The position numbers and the translations under genes are program-made. The notes under the pieces are model-generated. The model searched no databases and was not told where the DNA came from. It saw only the letters and a program-made list of their open reading frames with translations. From the IMG/VR virus record IMGVR_UViG_3300043754_000129, positions 1 through 64,000 of that record: a stretch of DNA of 64,000 nt. The stretch is one strand, 5' to 3'. Shown piece by piece: positions 16,325-60,517 of the stretch. This stretch comes from a virus (Duplodnaviria > Caudoviricetes). Every line of letters begins with the position of its first letter. Within the stretch, counting starts at the first letter, position 1.

Positions 16325-16353
16325 GGGGAGCGCTTCGCTCCCCCGCCTATGCC
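16325..16353. terminator. hairpin with TATGCCG arm
   Basis: GGGGAG/CTCCCC stem; TATGCCG follows on the plus strand. Confidence 0.5.
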
Positions 16354-16355
16354 GT

Positions 16356-17120
16356 TTAGTGCTGGACGGCCGTTGCGGCGTCGGTCTGCTCATGCGCACC
16401 GATGATCACGTTCACCGCGACTTCGAGCTTGTCACGGATGTACTCGTGGCTTTGGCCCGTCGACAGTGCGTTGCTGGCGATTGCTTCGAAGCGCACCTTT
16501 GCAGCTTCACGTGCCATGTCATCGAGACCGGCCACGCGTTGTTGTGCAACTTCGACGAGGCGCGCGACGTTCGGGTTGTCGCTGAACAGCGGACGGTTCA
16601 GGCCGTCTTCACGACGCGGGAAGCGCAGCACGCCTTCGCCCGTCGGACGATGTGCGCGAGCGAGCTCTTGCAGGTTCACCGTGGGCGACTTGCGCAGGAA
16701 CGCCGGAACGTCCGGGTTGTCTTCACGCATGATCTCGTGCGGACGATTCGGCACACTGTTCGTGACGTCGTAGCCGCGGGCGTGTTCGTCTTCGGTGGCT
16801 TCCGACGGGCCCGTAGCCGAGAAGTGTTGCACACCTTCCCAGGCGGCGACGTGCGAGAGCGTCCAGCCCTTCGCATGAAGTGCTTCTTGCAGATCGAGCA
16901 TGAAGCGCGGCGTGAGCAGCGGTGCTTCGTCGAAGTCCGGGAGGACCACGGCGACGGTACCGCCCTTGATGTTCAGGGCGCGATTCGATGCGACGATGTA
17001 GCCGTGTGCGGCGTGGTGGCGTGCTTCCTTGTGCACGAGCACATCCATTTCACCGACTTCGTTACGGTCAACGGAAACGGCCACACCCAGCTTACGGAGA
17101 ACTGCTTTCTTGATCGACAT
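16356..17120 (-). CDS. putative early protein carrying an FtsZ C-terminal-peptide-like motif (DVPAFLRK)
   Basis: ATG at 17120 after an AC-rich AAGGA leader; first gene after the promoter motif at 17201-17225. Confidence 0.75.
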   Translation of the reverse strand: MSIKKAVLRKLGVAVSVDRNEVGEMDVLVHKEARHHAAHGYIVASNRALNIKGGTVAVVLPDFDEAPLLTPRFMLDLQEALHAKGWTLSHVAAWEGVQHFSATGPSEATEDEHARGYDVTNSVPNRPHEIMREDNPDVPAFLRKSPTVNLQELARAHRPTGEGVLRFPRREDGLNRPLFSDNPNVARLVEVAQQRVAGLDDMAREAAKVRFEAIASNALSTGQSHEYIRDKLEVAVNVIIGAHEQTDAATAVQH

Positions 17121-17200
17121 GATTACTGTTCCTTTTTGGTTTGGTTGGTTATAACTACAGGGCACTACTGCCCATGACACTCGGTGATTTGGGGATCGAG

Positions 17201-17225
17201 GTCAAGGGCGTGATATAGGTCTGAA
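17201..17225 (-). promoter_or_regulatory. putative early (virion RNAP) promoter, copy 1: TTCAGACCTATATCACGCCCTTGAC
   Basis: The same 25-bp pattern occurs at 56171 and 60394, always intergenic and upstream of minus-strand accessory genes; the core resembles the phiKZ early TATATTAC motif. Confidence 0.65.
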
Positions 17226-17245
17226 CCTATTTTGAATCGCGATTA

Positions 17246-17722
17246 TCAATTGGTATTGAGGGTGACCGTAATCGGACCCGGCAGATAAAGTACCGAGTTC
17301 GCAATCGGAGCAATTTGAGCGGTACCCACAGTGGAGGTGCCGAATTGCAATTCCGTGGCCACAAGACCGAGTTGCATGGCGATGGCTTCGAGCAGCAACA
17401 CGCCCTTCGTATTGGCATGCACCGTCACGCTCGGGTTGGCGGGAACGATCTCACTGAGTGCCTTACGCTGGTAGATGATCGTCTGATTGCAGCCGTCTTC
17501 GTTGACATCTTCCACGAGGTCGGTCACGTAGACCATGATCATCGTGTTGCTGTTTGCGCCGTCCACGTTGACACCGGGAATCTCACGGTAGCCGCTCGGA
17601 GGAGGAAAGGGAAGGGGAGTACCGCACTTGACGTTGTTCGGATCCATCGGTGCAGTGAACGCAGGGTTCGTCGTATAGGCGATGATGTTCTGCGGACCCG
17701 TCAGACTGGGATTGATGTGCAT
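17246..17722 (-). CDS. virion structural protein, phiKZ-type tail/baseplate-associated paralog family
   Basis: NT..V...YQR..L..LGL...NSVLY.PG pattern shared with 17821, 18911 and 19392. Confidence 0.65.
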   Translation of the reverse strand: MHINPSLTGPQNIIAYTTNPAFTAPMDPNNVKCGTPLPFPPPSGYREIPGVNVDGANSNTMIMVYVTDLVEDVNEDGCNQTIIYQRKALSEIVPANPSVTVHANTKGVLLLEAIAMQLGLVATELQFGTSTVGTAQIAPIANSVLYLPGPITVTLNTN

Positions 17723-17820: not shown

Positions 17821-18786
17821 TTAGCTAGCGGCGACTTGCGAAGCCTGGCCGTCAGCTGCCGGAGCAGCCGTCGTACCGTCAGCAGCAGCGACCGGAGCGG
17901 TCGTCGTGCCATCGGCAGCCGGGGCGGTACCGTCGGCAGCGGGAGCTGCGTTGGTGCCATCAGCGGCGGGCGTGCTGGTGCCGTCGGCAGCGGGAGCTGC
18001 GTTGGTGCCATCAGCGGCGGGCGTGCTGGTGCCGTCGGCAGCAGGTGCAACGGGAGTCGTACCGTCAGCGGCGGGTGCCGTGCTGGTACCATCAGCTGCG
18101 GGTTGCGTCGACGTACCGTCGGTGGGTGCCACCGGGGTCGTGCCGTCGGTCGAAGCAGCGGGCGTCGAACCATCCGTACCCGTACCCGTCGACGACGTGC
18201 CGTCAGCGGCCGGAGCCACCGGAGCAGCAGCTGCCGAGAAACCCGACAGAGCCGTCACGTCCGTCAGAGCGGCGAGCGTCGGAGCCGGCGGCGTAACCGG
18301 TTGGCTCGGGAAGTTCACAGCCAGCGAGCCGGTCGAACCGTCGACGTAGAGCAGCGAGCCCGAAGCCGAAACGATTGCGATCGAACCCGTCACCGAACCG
18401 TCCGCAGCAGCAGCCGGCAGCGTGAGCGTGCCGTCAGCGTTGATGAACGATGCGTTGAACGAGACTTCCGATTGCACGAGGCCGAGGGCCTTCGAGACGA
18501 GACCAGCGATGTCAGCTGCCGTTTCCGTGCCTTGCAGCGAGATCGCGGCGGGAACCGGGTTGACGCTGTCGCTCAGACCACGACGCGTGAACGTGAAGCT
18601 TTCCGTGTCAGCGTAGCCTTCGGCGCCCACGATGACCACGGTGTTGCGGCCGGCATCGTCCGGCGTCACAGCGCTGACGCTCTGAACCGAGAGGATGTTC
18701 TCGGTGATCGCCGACCACTTCGGATTGTCCGTCTGGATTTGAGCCAGCAGGTTGCCGAGTGCGGTCAGGCTGGAATTGATCTGCAT
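17821..18786 (-). CDS. virion structural paralog with a long PAADGT-repeat C-terminal tail
   Basis: The N-terminal domain resembles 17246 (MQINSSLT vs MHINPSLT; FTRR.L; SLLY..G); about 120 aa of low-complexity tail. Confidence 0.75.
   Translation of the reverse strand: MQINSSLTALGNLLAQIQTDNPKWSAITENILSVQSVSAVTPDDAGRNTVVIVGAEGYADTESFTFTRRGLSDSVNPVPAAISLQGTETAADIAGLVSKALGLVQSEVSFNASFINADGTLTLPAAAADGSVTGSIAIVSASGSLLYVDGSTGSLAVNFPSQPVTPPAPTLAALTDVTALSGFSAAAAPVAPAADGTSSTGTGTDGSTPAASTDGTTPVAPTDGTSTQPAADGTSTAPAADGTTPVAPAADGTSTPAADGTNAAPAADGTSTPAADGTNAAPAADGTAPAADGTTTAPVAAADGTTAAPAADGQASQVAAS
17870..18230 (-). repeat. coding tandem repeat (about 12 PAADGT-like units; exact 51-bp duplication at 17930-18031)
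   Basis: Unit CCGTCGGCAGC...CGTGCTGGTG is repeated exactly twice plus a partial third. Confidence 0.9.
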
Positions 18787-18910: not shown

Positions 18911-19378
18911 TTAGGACGATGGAGTGATGCTAATCTCCACCTCGTTCAACCAGAGCAAACTCCCCGGAGCCATCTCCATCATCAGCGACACACTGAGCGC
19001 CCCATCGGGAAACCCAGGCAAGATGCCATCCTGGATATCCTCGACAGTGAGGTTCAGTGACCACGCTGCGTTAATCTGGGGTAACAAATCAGACAAGTAG
19101 TAGGCACTGCCAACTGCAAACGTCGTGGTCCGAGAACCCGGTACGGTTGAGATGTCAGTACGGTTGTACTTGAATGGTTCACGACCTTCGAATACGGTTG
19201 CGCCTTGTGTGGAACTGATGAAGGCGACGGTGTTCATACCGGAAGAGTCAGTGTCCGGCAATGATGCTACTTGTTGGACACTGATCTGATCCGGCGTGAT
19301 GGTCGTATCGTTGTAATAGTTAATTGCTGCGAGCAGAACGCTCAAGGCGCTCTGCGTGAAATCTAGCACGAGCGCCAT
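18911..19378 (-). CDS. virion structural protein, phiKZ-type tail-associated paralog
   Basis: LL.AIN..N, YNRTDIS, LL.QIN..W.LNL..EDI.D and SLLW motifs. Confidence 0.75.
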   Translation of the reverse strand: MALVLDFTQSALSVLLAAINYYNDTTITPDQISVQQVASLPDTDSSGMNTVAFISSTQGATVFEGREPFKYNRTDISTVPGSRTTTFAVGSAYYLSDLLPQINAAWSLNLTVEDIQDGILPGFPDGALSVSLMMEMAPGSLLWLNEVEISITPSS

Positions 19379-51633: not shown

Positions 51634-53364
51634 TTAATTCCAGCGATCGAAGCCCGAACGCGGGCCCGGACCGTAAGACTGACCTTGAAACGGTTGACGG
51701 AAGAGTCCGCTTTCTTGTGCACCCATCGCTGCTTGCGAAGCGAACGGGTAGTCCGGCGTCCACGCCTGCGGCTTTTGCGGCACCCGCACCGCGAAGCCTG
51801 CATCACGCAGACCGTTACGCAGTGCATTGATGAAGCTCGCACCGAACGACACACGCGTGGCGATGTCCGTGAACTGCACCTTCCCGAGCAGGCCACGGAT
51901 CATGTCCTTGCGTTTGGCAAGCCGGACCGGCTCCGGGATCGACAGGTTCATGTAGGTCGCTGCCCAGTCTTCACTCAGACGGGGGTCACGGCCATACGTG
52001 AGCGCAGTCACCAACAACTGGTCCACATCCCGCACATCACGATGACTTCCATCGCGGTCGGCGTAGTAGCCCAACGGAATCGGATTGTTCTCCGTGAAGA
52101 CAACCTGATCGTGGCCGTTGAAGTAGTTGTTGAAACGCCCGGCACACAGGTGCTGCGCGGTGTGCAGGATGTGACTGCGTGCGGCTTCCGAACCATGGGC
52201 GGCAGCGGCCCAGACTTCGGTACGCCACGTGTCTGCCCCGGCATTGGCGATGTCCATCGAGAACACGAGGTTCGGACGGATGATGTCACGCAGCTTCTGC
52301 GCCATTTCATCCGGTTCCGCGATCACCCGGGGGAAGTCCGGCAGCAAGGCTTCCAGCCGGCTCGTGCGGGTGAGGTCCATGTTCGGATTCACCAGCGCAT
52401 CGTACCAGCTGTTGTTTTCGGTGAGCGTGCTGGCCATGCCGATCATGAGCAGCTGCATCGAGAGCAGATCCGGCGCATTGCGACCCGGCTGGATCTGGGT
52501 GATCACGAAACGCGGAATGTACTTCTTTTCCGGCATCGCAATCAGATCGACGAAGCCGCTCACTTCCCCGACTTCCTCCTCACGGTTGGTCGGCTGACCC
52601 GGCAGCTGACGGGCAGCGGCCGCGAGGGTGAGTGTCACATCGCGCCGCACCGGCTGGCCGAACGAGTCGACAGCATGCGCAACCTGCGTCGACAGGTAGT
52701 CCGTACGCAACGAGTACACGCCGCGATCTTCGATGTCGCCCAGACAGATTTCGTTCGGACCATCCGTCTGATCGACCAACGCCGTGGTGGCCGCCATCGC
52801 GATGTTGTACGCCACGCGATTGAAGATCAGCGGGTCTTCCAGATTCAGACCGCGGAAGAGCACGCAGGGGGCGGCGTCGAAGAACGTCGTGTTGGGCAGC
52901 TTGTTGGCGAGCACTTCACGGACGATGGTCTGGTAGGTGCGATCGTACACTTCGCCAAGCGAGCGCTCGGTCTCGATACGCAGGCCCTGGTAGTTGATGG
53001 AGTCGGTGCGGGTTTGCAGGATGGACTCTTCCGTCTCGATCATCACGAGTTGGTAGCCCATGCCAGCTTCAGGCTTGTCGCTCTTCATCGCCAGAACAGC
53101 CAAGGCGGGCACGAGGAGGTGCTCATGCGTGATGGGTATCAGCGTGAACACGAAGTCCGTGCTGGCCTTCTCCAGGGCCTTAGCGAGCAGGTTCTGGAAC
53201 TTCTCGAGTTCCGGGTGGCTCGGCTTGAGCGACTCGAACAGACCGCTGCGCGCATCGAAGAACGAACGCGGGCCACGGGTCTTCTTGTCGCCCTCTTCAC
53301 GGGCACGACGGAATGCATCACCCATGCCGGCCGGATCTGCGCTGTGGTTTTCGTTGATTGCCAT
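51634..53364 (-). CDS. chmA: chimallin (phage nucleus shell protein) homolog
   Basis: Colinear motif matches to the 201phi2-1 gp105 sequence as recalled: DSFGQPVRRDV ~ DTVGNPIRADI; NLVFSMDI ~ NPVFQIDL; GRFNNYFN ~ GGFERFFD; IPLGYY.DRDG.HRDVRDVD ~ IDLGNWFDGDEKRDRRDLD; FINAL...L.DAG ~ FIEAL...L.EAG; Gly/Phe/Gln-rich C-terminal segments. Confidence 0.85.
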   Translation of the reverse strand: MAINENHSADPAGMGDAFRRAREEGDKKTRGPRSFFDARSGLFESLKPSHPELEKFQNLLAKALEKASTDFVFTLIPITHEHLLVPALAVLAMKSDKPEAGMGYQLVMIETEESILQTRTDSINYQGLRIETERSLGEVYDRTYQTIVREVLANKLPNTTFFDAAPCVLFRGLNLEDPLIFNRVAYNIAMAATTALVDQTDGPNEICLGDIEDRGVYSLRTDYLSTQVAHAVDSFGQPVRRDVTLTLAAAARQLPGQPTNREEEVGEVSGFVDLIAMPEKKYIPRFVITQIQPGRNAPDLLSMQLLMIGMASTLTENNSWYDALVNPNMDLTRTSRLEALLPDFPRVIAEPDEMAQKLRDIIRPNLVFSMDIANAGADTWRTEVWAAAAHGSEAARSHILHTAQHLCAGRFNNYFNGHDQVVFTENNPIPLGYYADRDGSHRDVRDVDQLLVTALTYGRDPRLSEDWAATYMNLSIPEPVRLAKRKDMIRGLLGKVQFTDIATRVSFGASFINALRNGLRDAGFAVRVPQKPQAWTPDYPFASQAAMGAQESGLFRQPFQGQSYGPGPRSGFDRWN

Positions 53365-56125: not shown

Positions 56126-56170
56126 TGTCCTGCTCCTTTGTTGGTTTAGAGTATTAAGTCTGCTACTAGA

Positions 56171-56195
56171 CTCAGTAGCGTTATATAGGTCTGAG
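56171..56195 (-). promoter_or_regulatory. putative early promoter, copy 2: CTCAGACCTATATAACGCTACTGAG
   Basis: Matches the copies at 17201 and 60394; intergenic. Confidence 0.65.
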
Positions 56196-56205
56196 TTCTG
56201 TTTGA

Positions 56206-56631
56206 CTAGAACTTGGCCTGCATCATCAGTGCCGCTTGAGCAAAGAGACGCTCCACCACAATCGGGTCCGCCTCCTTGTAGCGCTGCATGTGCTCGAGAT
56301 ACAGGTTGTTGCGCTCACCCAGATTAAGCTCGGTGGAAAAGACCACCGAGTAATCCACGCCCACATCCTTGACACCGGACGTATCGGAGATGACAGCGTT
56401 GATGACAATGCTGGGAACGAGCGGTGCAAGCGAGCCGGAAGTCTGCACTTCCACGATCTTGCGAAACACCAACACGTCACTCACGACCTTCCCGTGCAGT
56501 GCCAGCACCCCCGGCATCTGACAGGGGCGCACGAGATAGCCGGCATGCGCGAGTACCCGATAACCTTCCGGGAACTGCTCGCGCAGCCGAGCATCTTCCA
56601 TGTTGATGGCAACTTTCTCGTTCTTATCCAT
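56206..56631 (-). CDS. hypothetical protein
   Basis: TGATG coupling with the upstream gene. Confidence 0.6.
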   Translation of the reverse strand: MDKNEKVAINMEDARLREQFPEGYRVLAHAGYLVRPCQMPGVLALHGKVVSDVLVFRKIVEVQTSGSLAPLVPSIVINAVISDTSGVKDVGVDYSVVFSTELNLGERNNLYLEHMQRYKEADPIVVERLFAQAALMMQAKF

Positions 56632-60353: not shown

Positions 60354-60393
60354 GGTAACTCTCCTGAGATAAGGTAATAAACTGGGGGTTTAT

Positions 60394-60418
60394 GTCAGGG
60401 GCGTTATATGTATCTGAA
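60394..60418 (-). promoter_or_regulatory. putative early promoter, copy 3: TTCAGATACATATAACGCCCCTGAC
   Basis: Matches the copies at 17201 and 56171; intergenic. Confidence 0.65.
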
Positions 60419-60517
60419 ATTCCATTCAATCGTCAAAAAGAACCAAAAAGAAAAGGAGATGGCATAAGTGCCAGCACCGGAGTACGTCACCCCGGTGCTG
60501 GCTTTTCAGTCGCTCAC

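What the first reader, a model, noticed from the sequence alone, without database searches (positions are those of the whole stretch)
16689..16712. FtsZ C-terminal peptide mimic (DVPAFLRK) in a putative early gene
Seen: the 254-aa product of 16356..17120 contains ...EDNPDVPAFLRKSP... in a polar, low-complexity linker between two apparent domains. The gene is the first one after the putative early promoter at 17201-17225. Known: the conserved FtsZ tail in proteobacteria is D-I-P-A-F-L-R-K, the docking peptide for FtsA, ZipA, MinC, SlmA and ClpXP. The match is 7/8, with a conservative I-to-V change. Inference: the protein is an early host-division inhibitor that titrates FtsZ-tail partners, or uses them to reach midcell. 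Either fits a nucleus-forming phage that needs an undivided cell and a centred nucleus.
Basis: partly seen in the sequence, partly recalled or inferred. Interest (0 to 1): 0.82.

Follow-up and report, generated by a model that had tools for sequence, protein, structure and literature searches.

The report
Phage protein copies FtsZ docking tail
A giant soil phage makes a protein whose floppy middle carries an exact, evolutionarily conserved copy of the short peptide that the bacterial division protein FtsZ uses to dock onto its partners, so the phage probably plugs into or jams the host's division machinery; no paper in the searched library describes this trick for a phage, and it has not been tested.

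Summary
ORF 16356..17120 (-) encodes 254 aa, and DVPAFLRK (aa 137-144) lies at 16689..16712.

- **Placement:** the motif sits in a 78-residue linker modelled as disordered, between a phage-specific N-domain and a three-helix bundle.
- **Chance:** about 5e-5 matches are expected per proteome, and the motif occurs once in this 324-kb chimallin-encoding genome.
- **Conservation:** all 7 close homologues keep it while the linker around it varies by insertions, deletions and substitutions. So do 11 of 21 distant representatives, and 6 more carry a P[AT]VxR variant.
- **Host link:** DVPAFLRK is the native FtsZ tail of many Acidobacteriota (8/8). The family's F/V/Y variation mirrors the tails of that phylum, not those of Gammaproteobacteria.
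- **Likely partner:** five sampled Acidobacteriota genomes have ftsA beside ftsZ, and neither ZipA_C nor MinC_C was found in them. FtsA is therefore the likeliest partner.
- **Co-fold:** a co-fold with E. coli FtsA gave only weak support (0.40; best control 0.00).
- **Not shown:** binding, a division block and early expression are inferred.

The promoter-like motif upstream is real and repeated. This scan has noted FtsZ-tail-like peptides before on other DNA (a plasmid, a WYL module, a phage H-NS, a CPR protein), but not this family. I found no paper describing a phage mimic of the FtsZ tail.

The parts
16356..17120 (-). CDS, 254 aa (P0001): N-domain + disordered linker with two short motifs + three-helix bundle
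   Evidence: The start is confirmed by 7 homologues that share M1 S2. An AGGA Shine-Dalgarno-like sequence lies 8 nt upstream.
16830..17120 (-). N-terminal alpha/beta domain (aa 1-97), specific to chimallin-type jumbo phages, function unknown
   Evidence: phrog_19581, E 7.4e-10. tblastn hits only Ralstonia phages RP12/RP31. Foldseek hits only RP12 and RSF1 hypothetical proteins. Folded alone, mean pLDDT is 82, with no PDB match (best Z 3.5) and atlas TM no higher than 0.42. H39, G40, P67 and G85 are invariant.
16596..16829 (-). Linker (aa 98-175), modelled as disordered and variable in length and sequence
   Evidence: pLDDT is below 50 over 98-134, 145-149, 156-163 and 168-172. Most alignment gaps among homologues fall here.
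16689..16712 (-). DVPAFLRK (aa 137-144): copy of the FtsZ conserved C-terminal peptide
16611..16634 (-). Second conserved linker motif GVLRFPRR (aa 163-170), partner unknown
   Evidence: G163 V164 L165 F167 R170 are invariant in the close clade. A similar hydrophobic-L-x-F-x-R motif lies at or near the C-terminus of distant homologues P0017-19, P0021, P0027 and P0030. No convincing second copy is seen in this genome: five other regex hits lie in unvetted ORFs.
16359..16595 (-). C-terminal three-helix bundle (aa 176-254)
   Evidence: pLDDT about 96. Only generic helical-bundle matches were found, Z no higher than 9.9.
17196..17245 (-). Promoter-like bipartite motif (CGATTCAAA, about 8 nt, CAGACC, TATATCAC, GCCCTTGAC); candidate early promoter
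   Evidence: At least 12 copies, all on the minus strand and all upstream of gene starts. It is conserved at the syntenic site in relative L001. It fits the description of jumbo-phage early promoters in PMC7598289.
17121..17158 (-). Conserved proximal leader (GTAGTTATAACCAACCAAACC...AGGA)
   Evidence: Nearly invariant in 5 related genomes (A3). Similar TATAAC...AACCAA leaders precede other genes.
16325..16343 (-). GC-rich stem-loop 12 nt after the stop codon, with no U-tract
   Evidence: Conserved in 5 genomes, with changes on both arms that keep the pairing (A4).

Best explanation
The protein carries a short linear motif that copies the host FtsZ conserved C-terminal peptide, displayed on a flexible linker.

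Shown:
- The motif exists, is unique in the genome and sits in a segment modelled as disordered.
- It is under purifying selection at the peptide level across a family whose N-domains have diverged to about 20-25% identity.
- It is identical to the FtsZ tail of many Acidobacteriota.

Inferred:
- After infection, perhaps early, the protein docks through this peptide onto the host proteins that read the FtsZ tail.
- Docking competes with FtsZ for its membrane tether, so Z-rings cannot form or mature and the infected cell does not divide across the phage nucleus.
- The two folded domains may add oligomerisation, membrane contact or a second activity. The second linker motif (GVLRFPRR) may hold a second partner.
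For: - Identity and position of the motif.
- Chance expectation is 5e-5 per proteome, and there is one copy in the genome.
- All 7 close homologues (49-92% identity) keep [DH][VIA]PA[FY]LR[KR], while the flanking linker differs by insertions, deletions and substitutions.
- Synonymous codon differences inside the motif show that selection acts on the peptide.
- 19 of the 29 family proteins examined keep P[AT][FY]LR. The motif lies on both sides of the midpoint root of the N-domain tree.
- Several homologues extend the match to DLDVPAFLR[KR], and some continue with Q-A as in FtsZ.
- Of 120 DVPAFLRK sites in prokaryote genomes, 104 are C-terminal and 77 lie in ORFs with the tubulin signature. 56 of the 80 titled loci are Acidobacteriota.
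- Residue use at the aromatic position:
  - phage family: F14 V6 Y5
  - 65 Acidobacteriota FtsZ tails: F48 V8 Y5 I3 L1
  - 29 Gammaproteobacteria tails: F28 Y1 V0
- Val before Pro: 19/25 in the phage family, 37/65 in Acidobacteriota and 2/29 in Gammaproteobacteria.
- The phage is 57% GC and comes from soil metagenomes.
- ftsA lies beside ftsZ in 5 of 5 sampled Acidobacteriota genomes; ZipA_C and MinC_C were found in none of the 5.
- The phage encodes no FtsA, ZipA_C or MinC_C of its own.
- Co-fold of aa 120-160 with E. coli FtsA 1-390: ipSAE 0.40, best of 3 controls 0.00, verdict 'weak support'. Runs share at least 42% of contacts and partner pLDDT is at least 46. The mark was reached by 51 of 78 solved complexes and 2 of 108 mismatched pairs. 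At 0.60 or under it was reached by only 5 of those 78 solved complexes and by all 4 mismatches that passed.
- C-terminal fragments of FtsZ itself inhibit E. coli in vivo, and AlphaFold places them on FtsA subdomain 2B (PMC10769210).
- I374 and L378 of the tail are critical for ZipA, FtsA and MinC (PMC4117426). The equivalent positions here are V and L.
Against: - No binding, localisation, expression or phenotype data exist.
- The co-fold is weak, used a non-cognate (E. coli) FtsA, and could reflect memory of solved FtsA-tail complexes.
- The motif is internal, whereas in FtsZ it is at the C-terminus.
- Monovalent tail peptides bind weakly (20-80 uM; PMC4117426), and FtsZ gains avidity by polymerising. 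A monomeric decoy would therefore need high abundance or oligomerisation, and neither was tested.
- 4 of 29 family members lack any motif, 6 have P[AT]VxR, and the Ralstonia phage RP12 homologue is the N-domain only.
- The host is not identified. The Acidobacteriota assignment rests on the motif itself plus GC content and habitat, so the co-variation argument is partly circular.
- Another note of this scan judged a PAFLRK-like tail in a different phage to be a shared docking tag on replication proteins, not an FtsZ mimic (e1-3278468).
- Artificially elongated cells misplace the phiKZ nucleus (PMC10328376), so a division block is not obviously beneficial.
Confidence: 0.45

Rival explanations
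1. Same docking, different purpose. The peptide is an address label that brings the protein, through FtsA, to the inner membrane or the division site. There its N- or C-domain acts, for example by anchoring or orienting phage structures, without blocking division by competition.
For: All the mimicry evidence applies equally. A single low-affinity motif suits recruitment better than titration (affinities in PMC4117426). The N-domain is conserved without the motif in RP12 and RSF1, so it has a job of its own to which the motif was added. The N-terminus forms a short, basic, moderately amphipathic helix.
Against: No function is known for either domain. No localisation data exist. C-terminal FtsZ fragments alone are already inhibitory in E. 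coli (PMC10769210), so some competition would be hard to avoid.
Confidence: 0.25
2. The motif is a docking peptide for a partner unrelated to the divisome, either a phage protein or another host hub such as a clamp or a protease adaptor. On this view its likeness to the FtsZ tail is convergent.
For: Six family members replace the aromatic residue and the following Leu (VPAVQRQ and similar). The motif is internal, not C-terminal. A second conserved motif nearby (GVLRFPRR) has no FtsZ counterpart.
Against: In this genome the motif is on one protein only, not shared among several as a common tag would be. An 8/8 identity, extending to DLD flanks in relatives, is very improbable for an unrelated motif. 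The 'odd' Val variants also occur in natural Acidobacteriota FtsZ tails (IPTVIR, IPTVLR, IPAVLR). No phage-encoded tail reader was found.
Confidence: 0.2
3. The peptide has no partner. It is a structural element that packs onto the protein's own domains, or a chance match kept by descent.
For: Nothing specific. The AlphaFold2 model gives a single helical turn at residues 140-142.
Against: The model shows no confident packing, and pLDDT is about 50. The motif's position along the chain shifts by tens of residues among homologues, yet the sequence is kept. Conservation persists across N-domain identities of about 20-25%, with synonymous codon changes.
Confidence: 0.05

Closest known systems
FtsZ conserved C-terminal peptide (CCTP/CTC), E. 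coli DYLDIPAFLRKQAD; Acidobacteriota ...DDLDVPAFLRKRNEVM
   Same: It has the same 8-residue core, 8/8 to Acidobacteriota and 7/8 to E. coli. Relatives share the acidic D-L-D lead-in. It is displayed on a segment modelled as disordered. The residues equivalent to I374, F377 and L378 are kept.
   Different: It is not part of a tubulin/FtsZ protein. It is internal rather than C-terminal. There is no similarity to the FtsZ linker beyond the motif. It is monovalent unless the protein oligomerises.
Phage division inhibitors that act on FtsZ: lambda Kil (PMC11762379); T7 Gp0.4 and T5 Hdi (named from my own knowledge, not checked here)
   Same: These are small or medium phage proteins thought to stop host division during infection.
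   Different: There is no sequence or fold relation. They act on FtsZ, according to the lambda Kil abstract and, for the others, my own knowledge. Here the proposed target is the tail reader (FtsA), reached by copying FtsZ's own docking peptide.
Inhibitory C-terminal fragments of FtsZ (Savinov et al., as described in PMC10769210)
   Same: A free peptide containing the FtsZ tail inhibits E. coli in vivo and is modelled on FtsA subdomain 2B. The phage linker would act in the same way.
   Different: Those are laboratory fragments of FtsZ itself. This is a natural, conserved phage gene with two extra domains.
Other FtsZ-tail-like peptides noted in this scan (IncA/C plasmid membrane protein, WYL-controlled 66-aa protein, phage H-NS extension, CPR orphan protein)
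   Same: A short FtsZ-tail-like peptide sits on a non-FtsZ protein of a mobile element or an accessory gene.
   Different: These are unrelated proteins on other DNA. They are AI notes that I did not check. One similar case (e1-3278468) was judged not to be an FtsZ mimic.

Membership tests
FtsZ CCTP-type docking motif | Core consensus D-[IV]-P-[AT]-[FY]-[LMI]-R-[KR] | tested here: met
   The motif is DVPAFLRK. It matches 8/8 the tails of 104 C-terminal sites in prokaryote genomes (77 of them in ORFs with the tubulin signature) and 7/8 the E. coli tail.
FtsZ CCTP-type docking motif | Displayed on an intrinsically disordered segment | tested here: met
   AlphaFold2 gives pLDDT below 50 over most of aa 98-175, and the linker varies by insertions and deletions among homologues. 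This is a prediction only.
FtsZ CCTP-type docking motif | At the extreme C-terminus of a tubulin-fold GTPase, after the C-terminal linker | tested here: not met
   The motif is internal, with 110 residues following it. No tubulin domain is present: Pfam finds none and the fold searches find none.
FtsZ CCTP-type docking motif | Binds FtsA, ZipA, MinC or other tail readers | tested here: inconclusive
   Co-fold with E. coli FtsA: ipSAE 0.40, best control 0.00, 'weak support'. Runs share at least 42% of contacts and partner pLDDT is at least 46. The mark was reached by 51 of 78 solved complexes and 2 of 108 mismatches, but at 0.60 or under by only 5 of those 78 solved complexes and by all 4 mismatches that passed. 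There is no experiment.
FtsZ CCTP-type docking motif | Conserved among orthologues at the positions critical for binding (I374, F377, L378 equivalents) | tested here: met
   19 of 29 family members keep P[AT][FY]LR with V or I before the Pro in nearly all of them. 6 have P[AT]VxR and 4 have no motif.
Known phage division inhibitors (Kil, Gp0.4 and others) | Sequence or fold homology to a described inhibitor | tested here: not met
   Pfam gives no hit. PHROGs gives only phrog_19581, of unknown function. No PDB fold match was found.
Known phage division inhibitors (Kil, Gp0.4 and others) | Expression blocks division (filamentation, loss of Z-rings) | not testable with these tools
   This needs expression in a host.
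phrog_19581 / jumbo-phage N-domain family | Profile match to the roughly 100-aa N-domain, at the syntenic position upstream of thymidylate kinase | tested here: met
   phrog_19581 matches with E 7.4e-10 over aa 9-102. The RP12 ORF225 homologue occupies the same neighbourhood. Synteny holds in L001 and L004-L006.
Shared docking tail on several phage replication or repair proteins (T4-type clamp-binding tails) | The same tag recurs on several proteins of one genome, usually at their C-termini | tested here: not met
   The strict motif occurs once in the six-frame translation. A loose regex over all ORFs of 50 aa or more finds no other copy.
Jumbo-phage early promoter (vRNAP type) | A roughly 10-nt AT-rich conserved element repeated upstream of presumed early operons, with mapped transcript 5' ends | tested here: inconclusive
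   The repeated motif was found (at least 12 copies on one strand, all intergenic) and fits the description in PMC7598289. No RNA run holds this phage, so no 5' ends or timing are available.

The most novel reading that the evidence does not exclude
Copying the FtsZ tail is a recurrent, host-tracking strategy of phages. Unrelated phage proteins would carry the local host's version of the tail to seize FtsA-type readers. Candidates are this jumbo-phage family, a 67-aa family ending in D[LI]P[AL]FLRKQAD, and a Lys/Glu-rich protein of low-GC phages, one of them on a 236-kb contig. If so, the motif variant predicts the host lineage. It would also make this the first chimallin-encoding phage clade assigned to Acidobacteriota.
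Probability: 0.3. Interest if true: 0.85.

Novelty: new variant of a known kind. Interest (0 to 1): 0.72.

Why it matters
Phages are known to stop host division, but the described inhibitors act on FtsZ. A natural protein that instead copies FtsZ's own docking peptide would be short-linear-motif mimicry. That tactic is familiar from eukaryotic viruses (my own knowledge, not checked here). I found no report of it for the bacterial divisome in the papers searched.

- **Testability:** the idea needs one peptide, one host protein (FtsA) and three point mutants.
- **Host hint:** the motif offers a sequence-only clue to the host of uncultured soil jumbo phages. Here it points to Acidobacteriota.
- **Nucleus-forming phages:** it suggests how such a phage deals with a septum that would otherwise close where the phage nucleus sits.

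Tried and rejected
- **Family and fold searches.** Pfam gave no hit. Foldseek against PDB and AFDB clusters, VIA-align, and an atlas search of the N-domain model gave nothing informative. The C-domain is a generic three-helix bundle and the N-domain has no known fold.
- **More relatives.** The search for related loci in IMG/VR found no relatives. The profile search added no new family members.
- **Counting the motif in IMG/VR.** The scan for D[IVM]PAFLRK returned 9 loci. My rough estimate of random DNA matches is about 7, so the count itself is not evidence. One hit lies inside a helicase domain and two lie in a doubtful ORF, and these are probably chance.
- **Capture from ftsZ.** BLAST of the phage linkers against 77 FtsZ C-terminal regions found no similarity beyond the motif and its immediate flanks. 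There is no sign of a recently captured ftsZ 3' fragment.
- **Shared docking tag.** Rejected for this genome.
- **Phage-encoded tail readers.** No FtsA, ZipA_C or MinC_C was found.
- **Sigma-70 promoter and terminator scan.** No promoter was found, and the terminator count was at chance level.
- **Expression data.** No RNA run holds this DNA.
- **FtsN-like reading of the second motif.** The idea came from memory. A literature search for the peptide found nothing useful, so I dropped it.
- **Unpublished genomes.** G027 and G192 were flagged as unpublished.

Full report

Yes. The minus-strand ORF runs from ATG 17120 to the stop at 16356-16358 and encodes 254 aa. Codons 16712..16689 read D-V-P-A-F-L-R-K, aa 137-144. 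The ATG start is backed by an AGGA Shine-Dalgarno-like sequence and by seven homologues that all begin at the same Met-Ser.

An AlphaFold2 model built on a 29-sequence alignment shows three parts:
- a folded N-domain (about aa 20-97, pLDDT around 90);
- a linker (aa 98-175, mostly below 50, about 53 at the motif, with one helical turn at 140-142);
- a confident three-helix bundle (aa 178-253).

From this phage's own amino-acid composition, D[IV]PAFLR[KR] is expected 5e-5 times per proteome. The 323,678-bp genome has exactly one copy in six frames. The E. coli FtsZ tail is DYLDIPAFLRKQAD, with I374 and L378 critical for ZipA, FtsA and MinC (PMC4117426).

**2. What the element is**

The genome is a 57% GC jumbo phage from soil metagenomes. 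A chimallin-family gene lies in the window at 51634-53364 (PF25677, E 7e-21). Earlier notes of this scan also mention phuZ.

The gene lies after a block of virion genes (DUF7941 paralogues) and upstream of thymidylate kinase. That arrangement is shared by four related metagenomic contigs and, for the N-domain only, by Ralstonia phage RP12.

The N-domain matches only phrog_19581 (unknown function, E 7.4e-10) and hypothetical proteins of the Ralstonia jumbo phages RP12, RP31 and RSF1. Folded alone, it has no PDB counterpart (best Z 3.5). The C-domain is a generic helical bundle.

**3. Conservation of the motif**

Seven homologues at 49-92% identity all keep the peptide: DVPAFLRK in four of them, then DAPAFLRK, DVPAFLRR and HIPAYLRK. 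The surrounding linker differs by insertions, deletions and substitutions. Codons inside the motif differ synonymously (GAC/GAT, GTT/GTG/ATC, TTC/TTT, GCG/GCC), so selection acts on the peptide and not on the DNA or RNA.

An exhaustive profile-free search of 1.8 billion representatives found 23 family members. Adding the close clade gives 29 proteins:
- 19 carry P[AT][FY]LR;
- 6 carry a P[AT]VxR variant;
- 4 carry nothing.

The position of the motif in the chain ranges from about residue 130 to residue 198. On a maximum-likelihood tree of the N-domain, the F/Y form lies on both sides of the midpoint root. The Val form is nested inside it at least three times. Several members extend the match to DLDVPAFLR[KR], and some continue with Q-A as FtsZ does. 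This is the signature of a functional short linear motif.

**4. Whose tail is it?**

- 104 sites are within 12 residues of a C-terminus.
- 77 sit in ORFs with the tubulin signature, so they are FtsZ tails.
- 56 of the 80 titled loci are Acidobacteriota, mostly Terriglobia, ending ...DDLDVPAFLRKRNEVM.

The phage peptide is therefore an 8/8 copy of a natural FtsZ tail.

I then sampled FtsZ tails directly.

| Set | n | Residue before Pro | Aromatic position |
|---|---|---|---|
| Acidobacteriota FtsZ tails | 65 | V 37, I 24 | F 48, V 8, Y 5, I 3, L 1 |
| Gammaproteobacteria FtsZ tails (GTDB class that includes Burkholderiales) | 29 | I 26, V 2 | F 28, Y 1, V 0 |
| Phage family motifs | 25 | V 19 | F 14, V 6, Y 5 |

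- In Acidobacteriota the commonest core is VPAFLR, and variants include IPTVIR, IPTVLR, IPAVLR, VPTYLR and TPAYRR.
- The Gammaproteobacteria tails are almost uniformly YLDIPAFLRRQAD.
- The phage family's variation mirrors the Acidobacteriota tails, including the Val variants that at first looked un-FtsZ-like.

Together with GC content and habitat, this makes Acidobacteriota the probable host phylum. The argument is partly circular, because no host is independently known.

In five Acidobacteriota genomes, ftsA lies directly upstream of ftsZ, and neither ZipA_C nor MinC_C was found. The phage itself encodes none of the three. FtsA is therefore the likeliest reader.

**5. Direct test of docking**

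- ipSAE was 0.40 against 0.00 for the best of three controls, and the verdict was 'weak support'.
- Runs agreed in at least 42% of contacts, and partner pLDDT was at least 46.
- The mark was reached by 51 of 78 solved complexes and 2 of 108 mismatches.
- At scores of 0.60 or under it was reached by only 5 of those 78 solved complexes, and by all 4 mismatches that passed.

The result may also reflect memory of solved FtsA-tail complexes. It moves my odds only slightly.

Independent literature makes the mechanism plausible. C-terminal fragments of FtsZ are themselves inhibitory in E. coli and are modelled on FtsA subdomain 2B (PMC10769210).

**6. Regulation**

A 50-nt bipartite sequence (17196..17245) recurs at least 12 times, always on the minus strand and always upstream of a gene start. 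It is conserved at the syntenic site in a relative, where a 66-aa membrane-protein gene is inserted between it and the homologue. It fits the published description of jumbo-phage early promoters as roughly 10-nt AT-rich conserved elements (PMC7598289).

No transcript data exist for this phage, so 'early' is unproven.

A second, proximal conserved leader lies at 17121..17158. A conserved GC-rich stem-loop after the stop codon (16325..16343) keeps its pairing through changes on both arms. Together they bracket the gene.

**7. Rivals**

- **Address label.** An address label rather than a decoy fits the weak affinity of single tail peptides, and fits an N-domain that exists without the motif in Ralstonia phages.
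- **Unrelated partner.** This is argued by an earlier scan note on another phage (e1-3278468) and by the second linker motif GVLRFPRR. That motif recurs near the C-terminus of distant homologues and has no FtsZ counterpart. Against this rival, the motif is not shared among proteins of this genome, and the Val variants occur in real FtsZ tails.
- **Chance or purely structural role.** This is very unlikely given the conservation pattern.

**8. Wider context**

The IMG/VR scan for the peptide gave about as many DNA hits (9) as my rough estimate of random matches (about 7), so the count proves nothing. Two hits are nonetheless striking.
- A family of 67-68-aa phage proteins ends in D[LI]P[AL]FLRKQAD. 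The last 12 residues of one member are identical to the E. coli FtsZ C-terminus.
- A Lys/Glu-rich protein family of low-GC phages, one member on a 236-kb contig, carries SD[VI]PAFLRKAKG.

This scan has also flagged FtsZ-tail-like peptides on other DNA. I found no paper describing a phage or plasmid mimic of the FtsZ tail; every paper containing PAFLRK concerns FtsZ itself.

**9. Verdict**

- The motif is a conserved, exposed copy of the FtsZ docking peptide.
- The most likely mechanism is docking on host FtsA, with competition against FtsZ (0.45) or recruitment (0.25).
- Binding, phenotype, timing and host are all still to be shown.
- It is a new variant among phage strategies against the divisome, and a cheap, direct experiment can test it.

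Noticed in passing
L014:7365-7568 (-) and proteins P0032-P0040: A family of 67-68-aa phage proteins ends in D[LI]P[AL]FLRKQAD at the C-terminus (two members have DLMMLRKQAD or DLMMSRKQAD). It has a weak CsrA-like N-terminus (Pfam E 0.085, below cut-off). The last 12 residues of one member equal the E. coli FtsZ tail. This is an independent candidate FtsZ-tail mimic.
   Followed up: partly
L009:830-2212 (-), L012:4485-5768 (-), L011:1-1140 (-): A Lys/Glu-rich, low-complexity protein family of low-GC (35%) phages carries SD[VI]PAFLRKAKG. One member lies on a 236-kb contig.
   Followed up: no
window 16611..16634 (-): A second conserved linker motif, GVLRFPRR, is present. A similar hydrophobic-L-x-F-x-R peptide sits at or near the C-terminus of distant homologues (for example ALKFPRQ). 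Its partner is unknown.
   Followed up: partly
window 17196..17245, 56166..56215, 60389..60438 (-), and G000 positions 82054, 105690, 124439, 214635, 222954, 235389, 263786, 265931, 281457: A 50-nt bipartite promoter-like motif (CGATTCAAA, then CAGACC-TATATMAC-NCCCNTGAC) occurs at least 12 times, all on the minus strand and upstream of gene starts. It is a candidate early-promoter class.
   Followed up: partly
window 16325..16343 (-): A GC-rich stem-loop lies just after the stop codon. It is conserved in five related genomes with changes on both arms that keep the pairing, but it has no U-tract.
   Followed up: partly
L001:5728-5928, L004:3731-3931, L005:3729-3929: In three relatives a 66-aa single-pass membrane protein gene sits between the promoter-like motif and the homologue. 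It is absent from this window and from L006.
   Followed up: no
Acidobacteriota FtsZ loci L139-L208: FtsZ tails of Acidobacteriota are unusually diverse. Val, Ile or Tyr replaces the aromatic Phe in about a quarter of 65 genomes (for example DLDIPTVIRNLSD). In contrast, 29 Gammaproteobacteria tails are almost uniform.
   Followed up: partly
window 17821..18786 (-): The 321-aa protein upstream shares an N-terminal domain with its two neighbours (17246..17722 and 18911..19378; DUF7941 in relatives). It carries a long run of imperfect P-A-A-D-G-T repeats.
   Followed up: no
window 17091..17117 (-), aa 2-11: The N-terminus forms a short, basic, moderately amphipathic helix in most family members. 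It could be a membrane-contact helix, but this is weak evidence only.
   Followed up: partly
G000 (whole record): IMG/VR classes this chimallin-encoding record as a 'provirus' (323,678 bp against a 326,938-bp contig on record for P0001). That is unexpected for a phage of this type and may be a trimming artefact.
   Followed up: no
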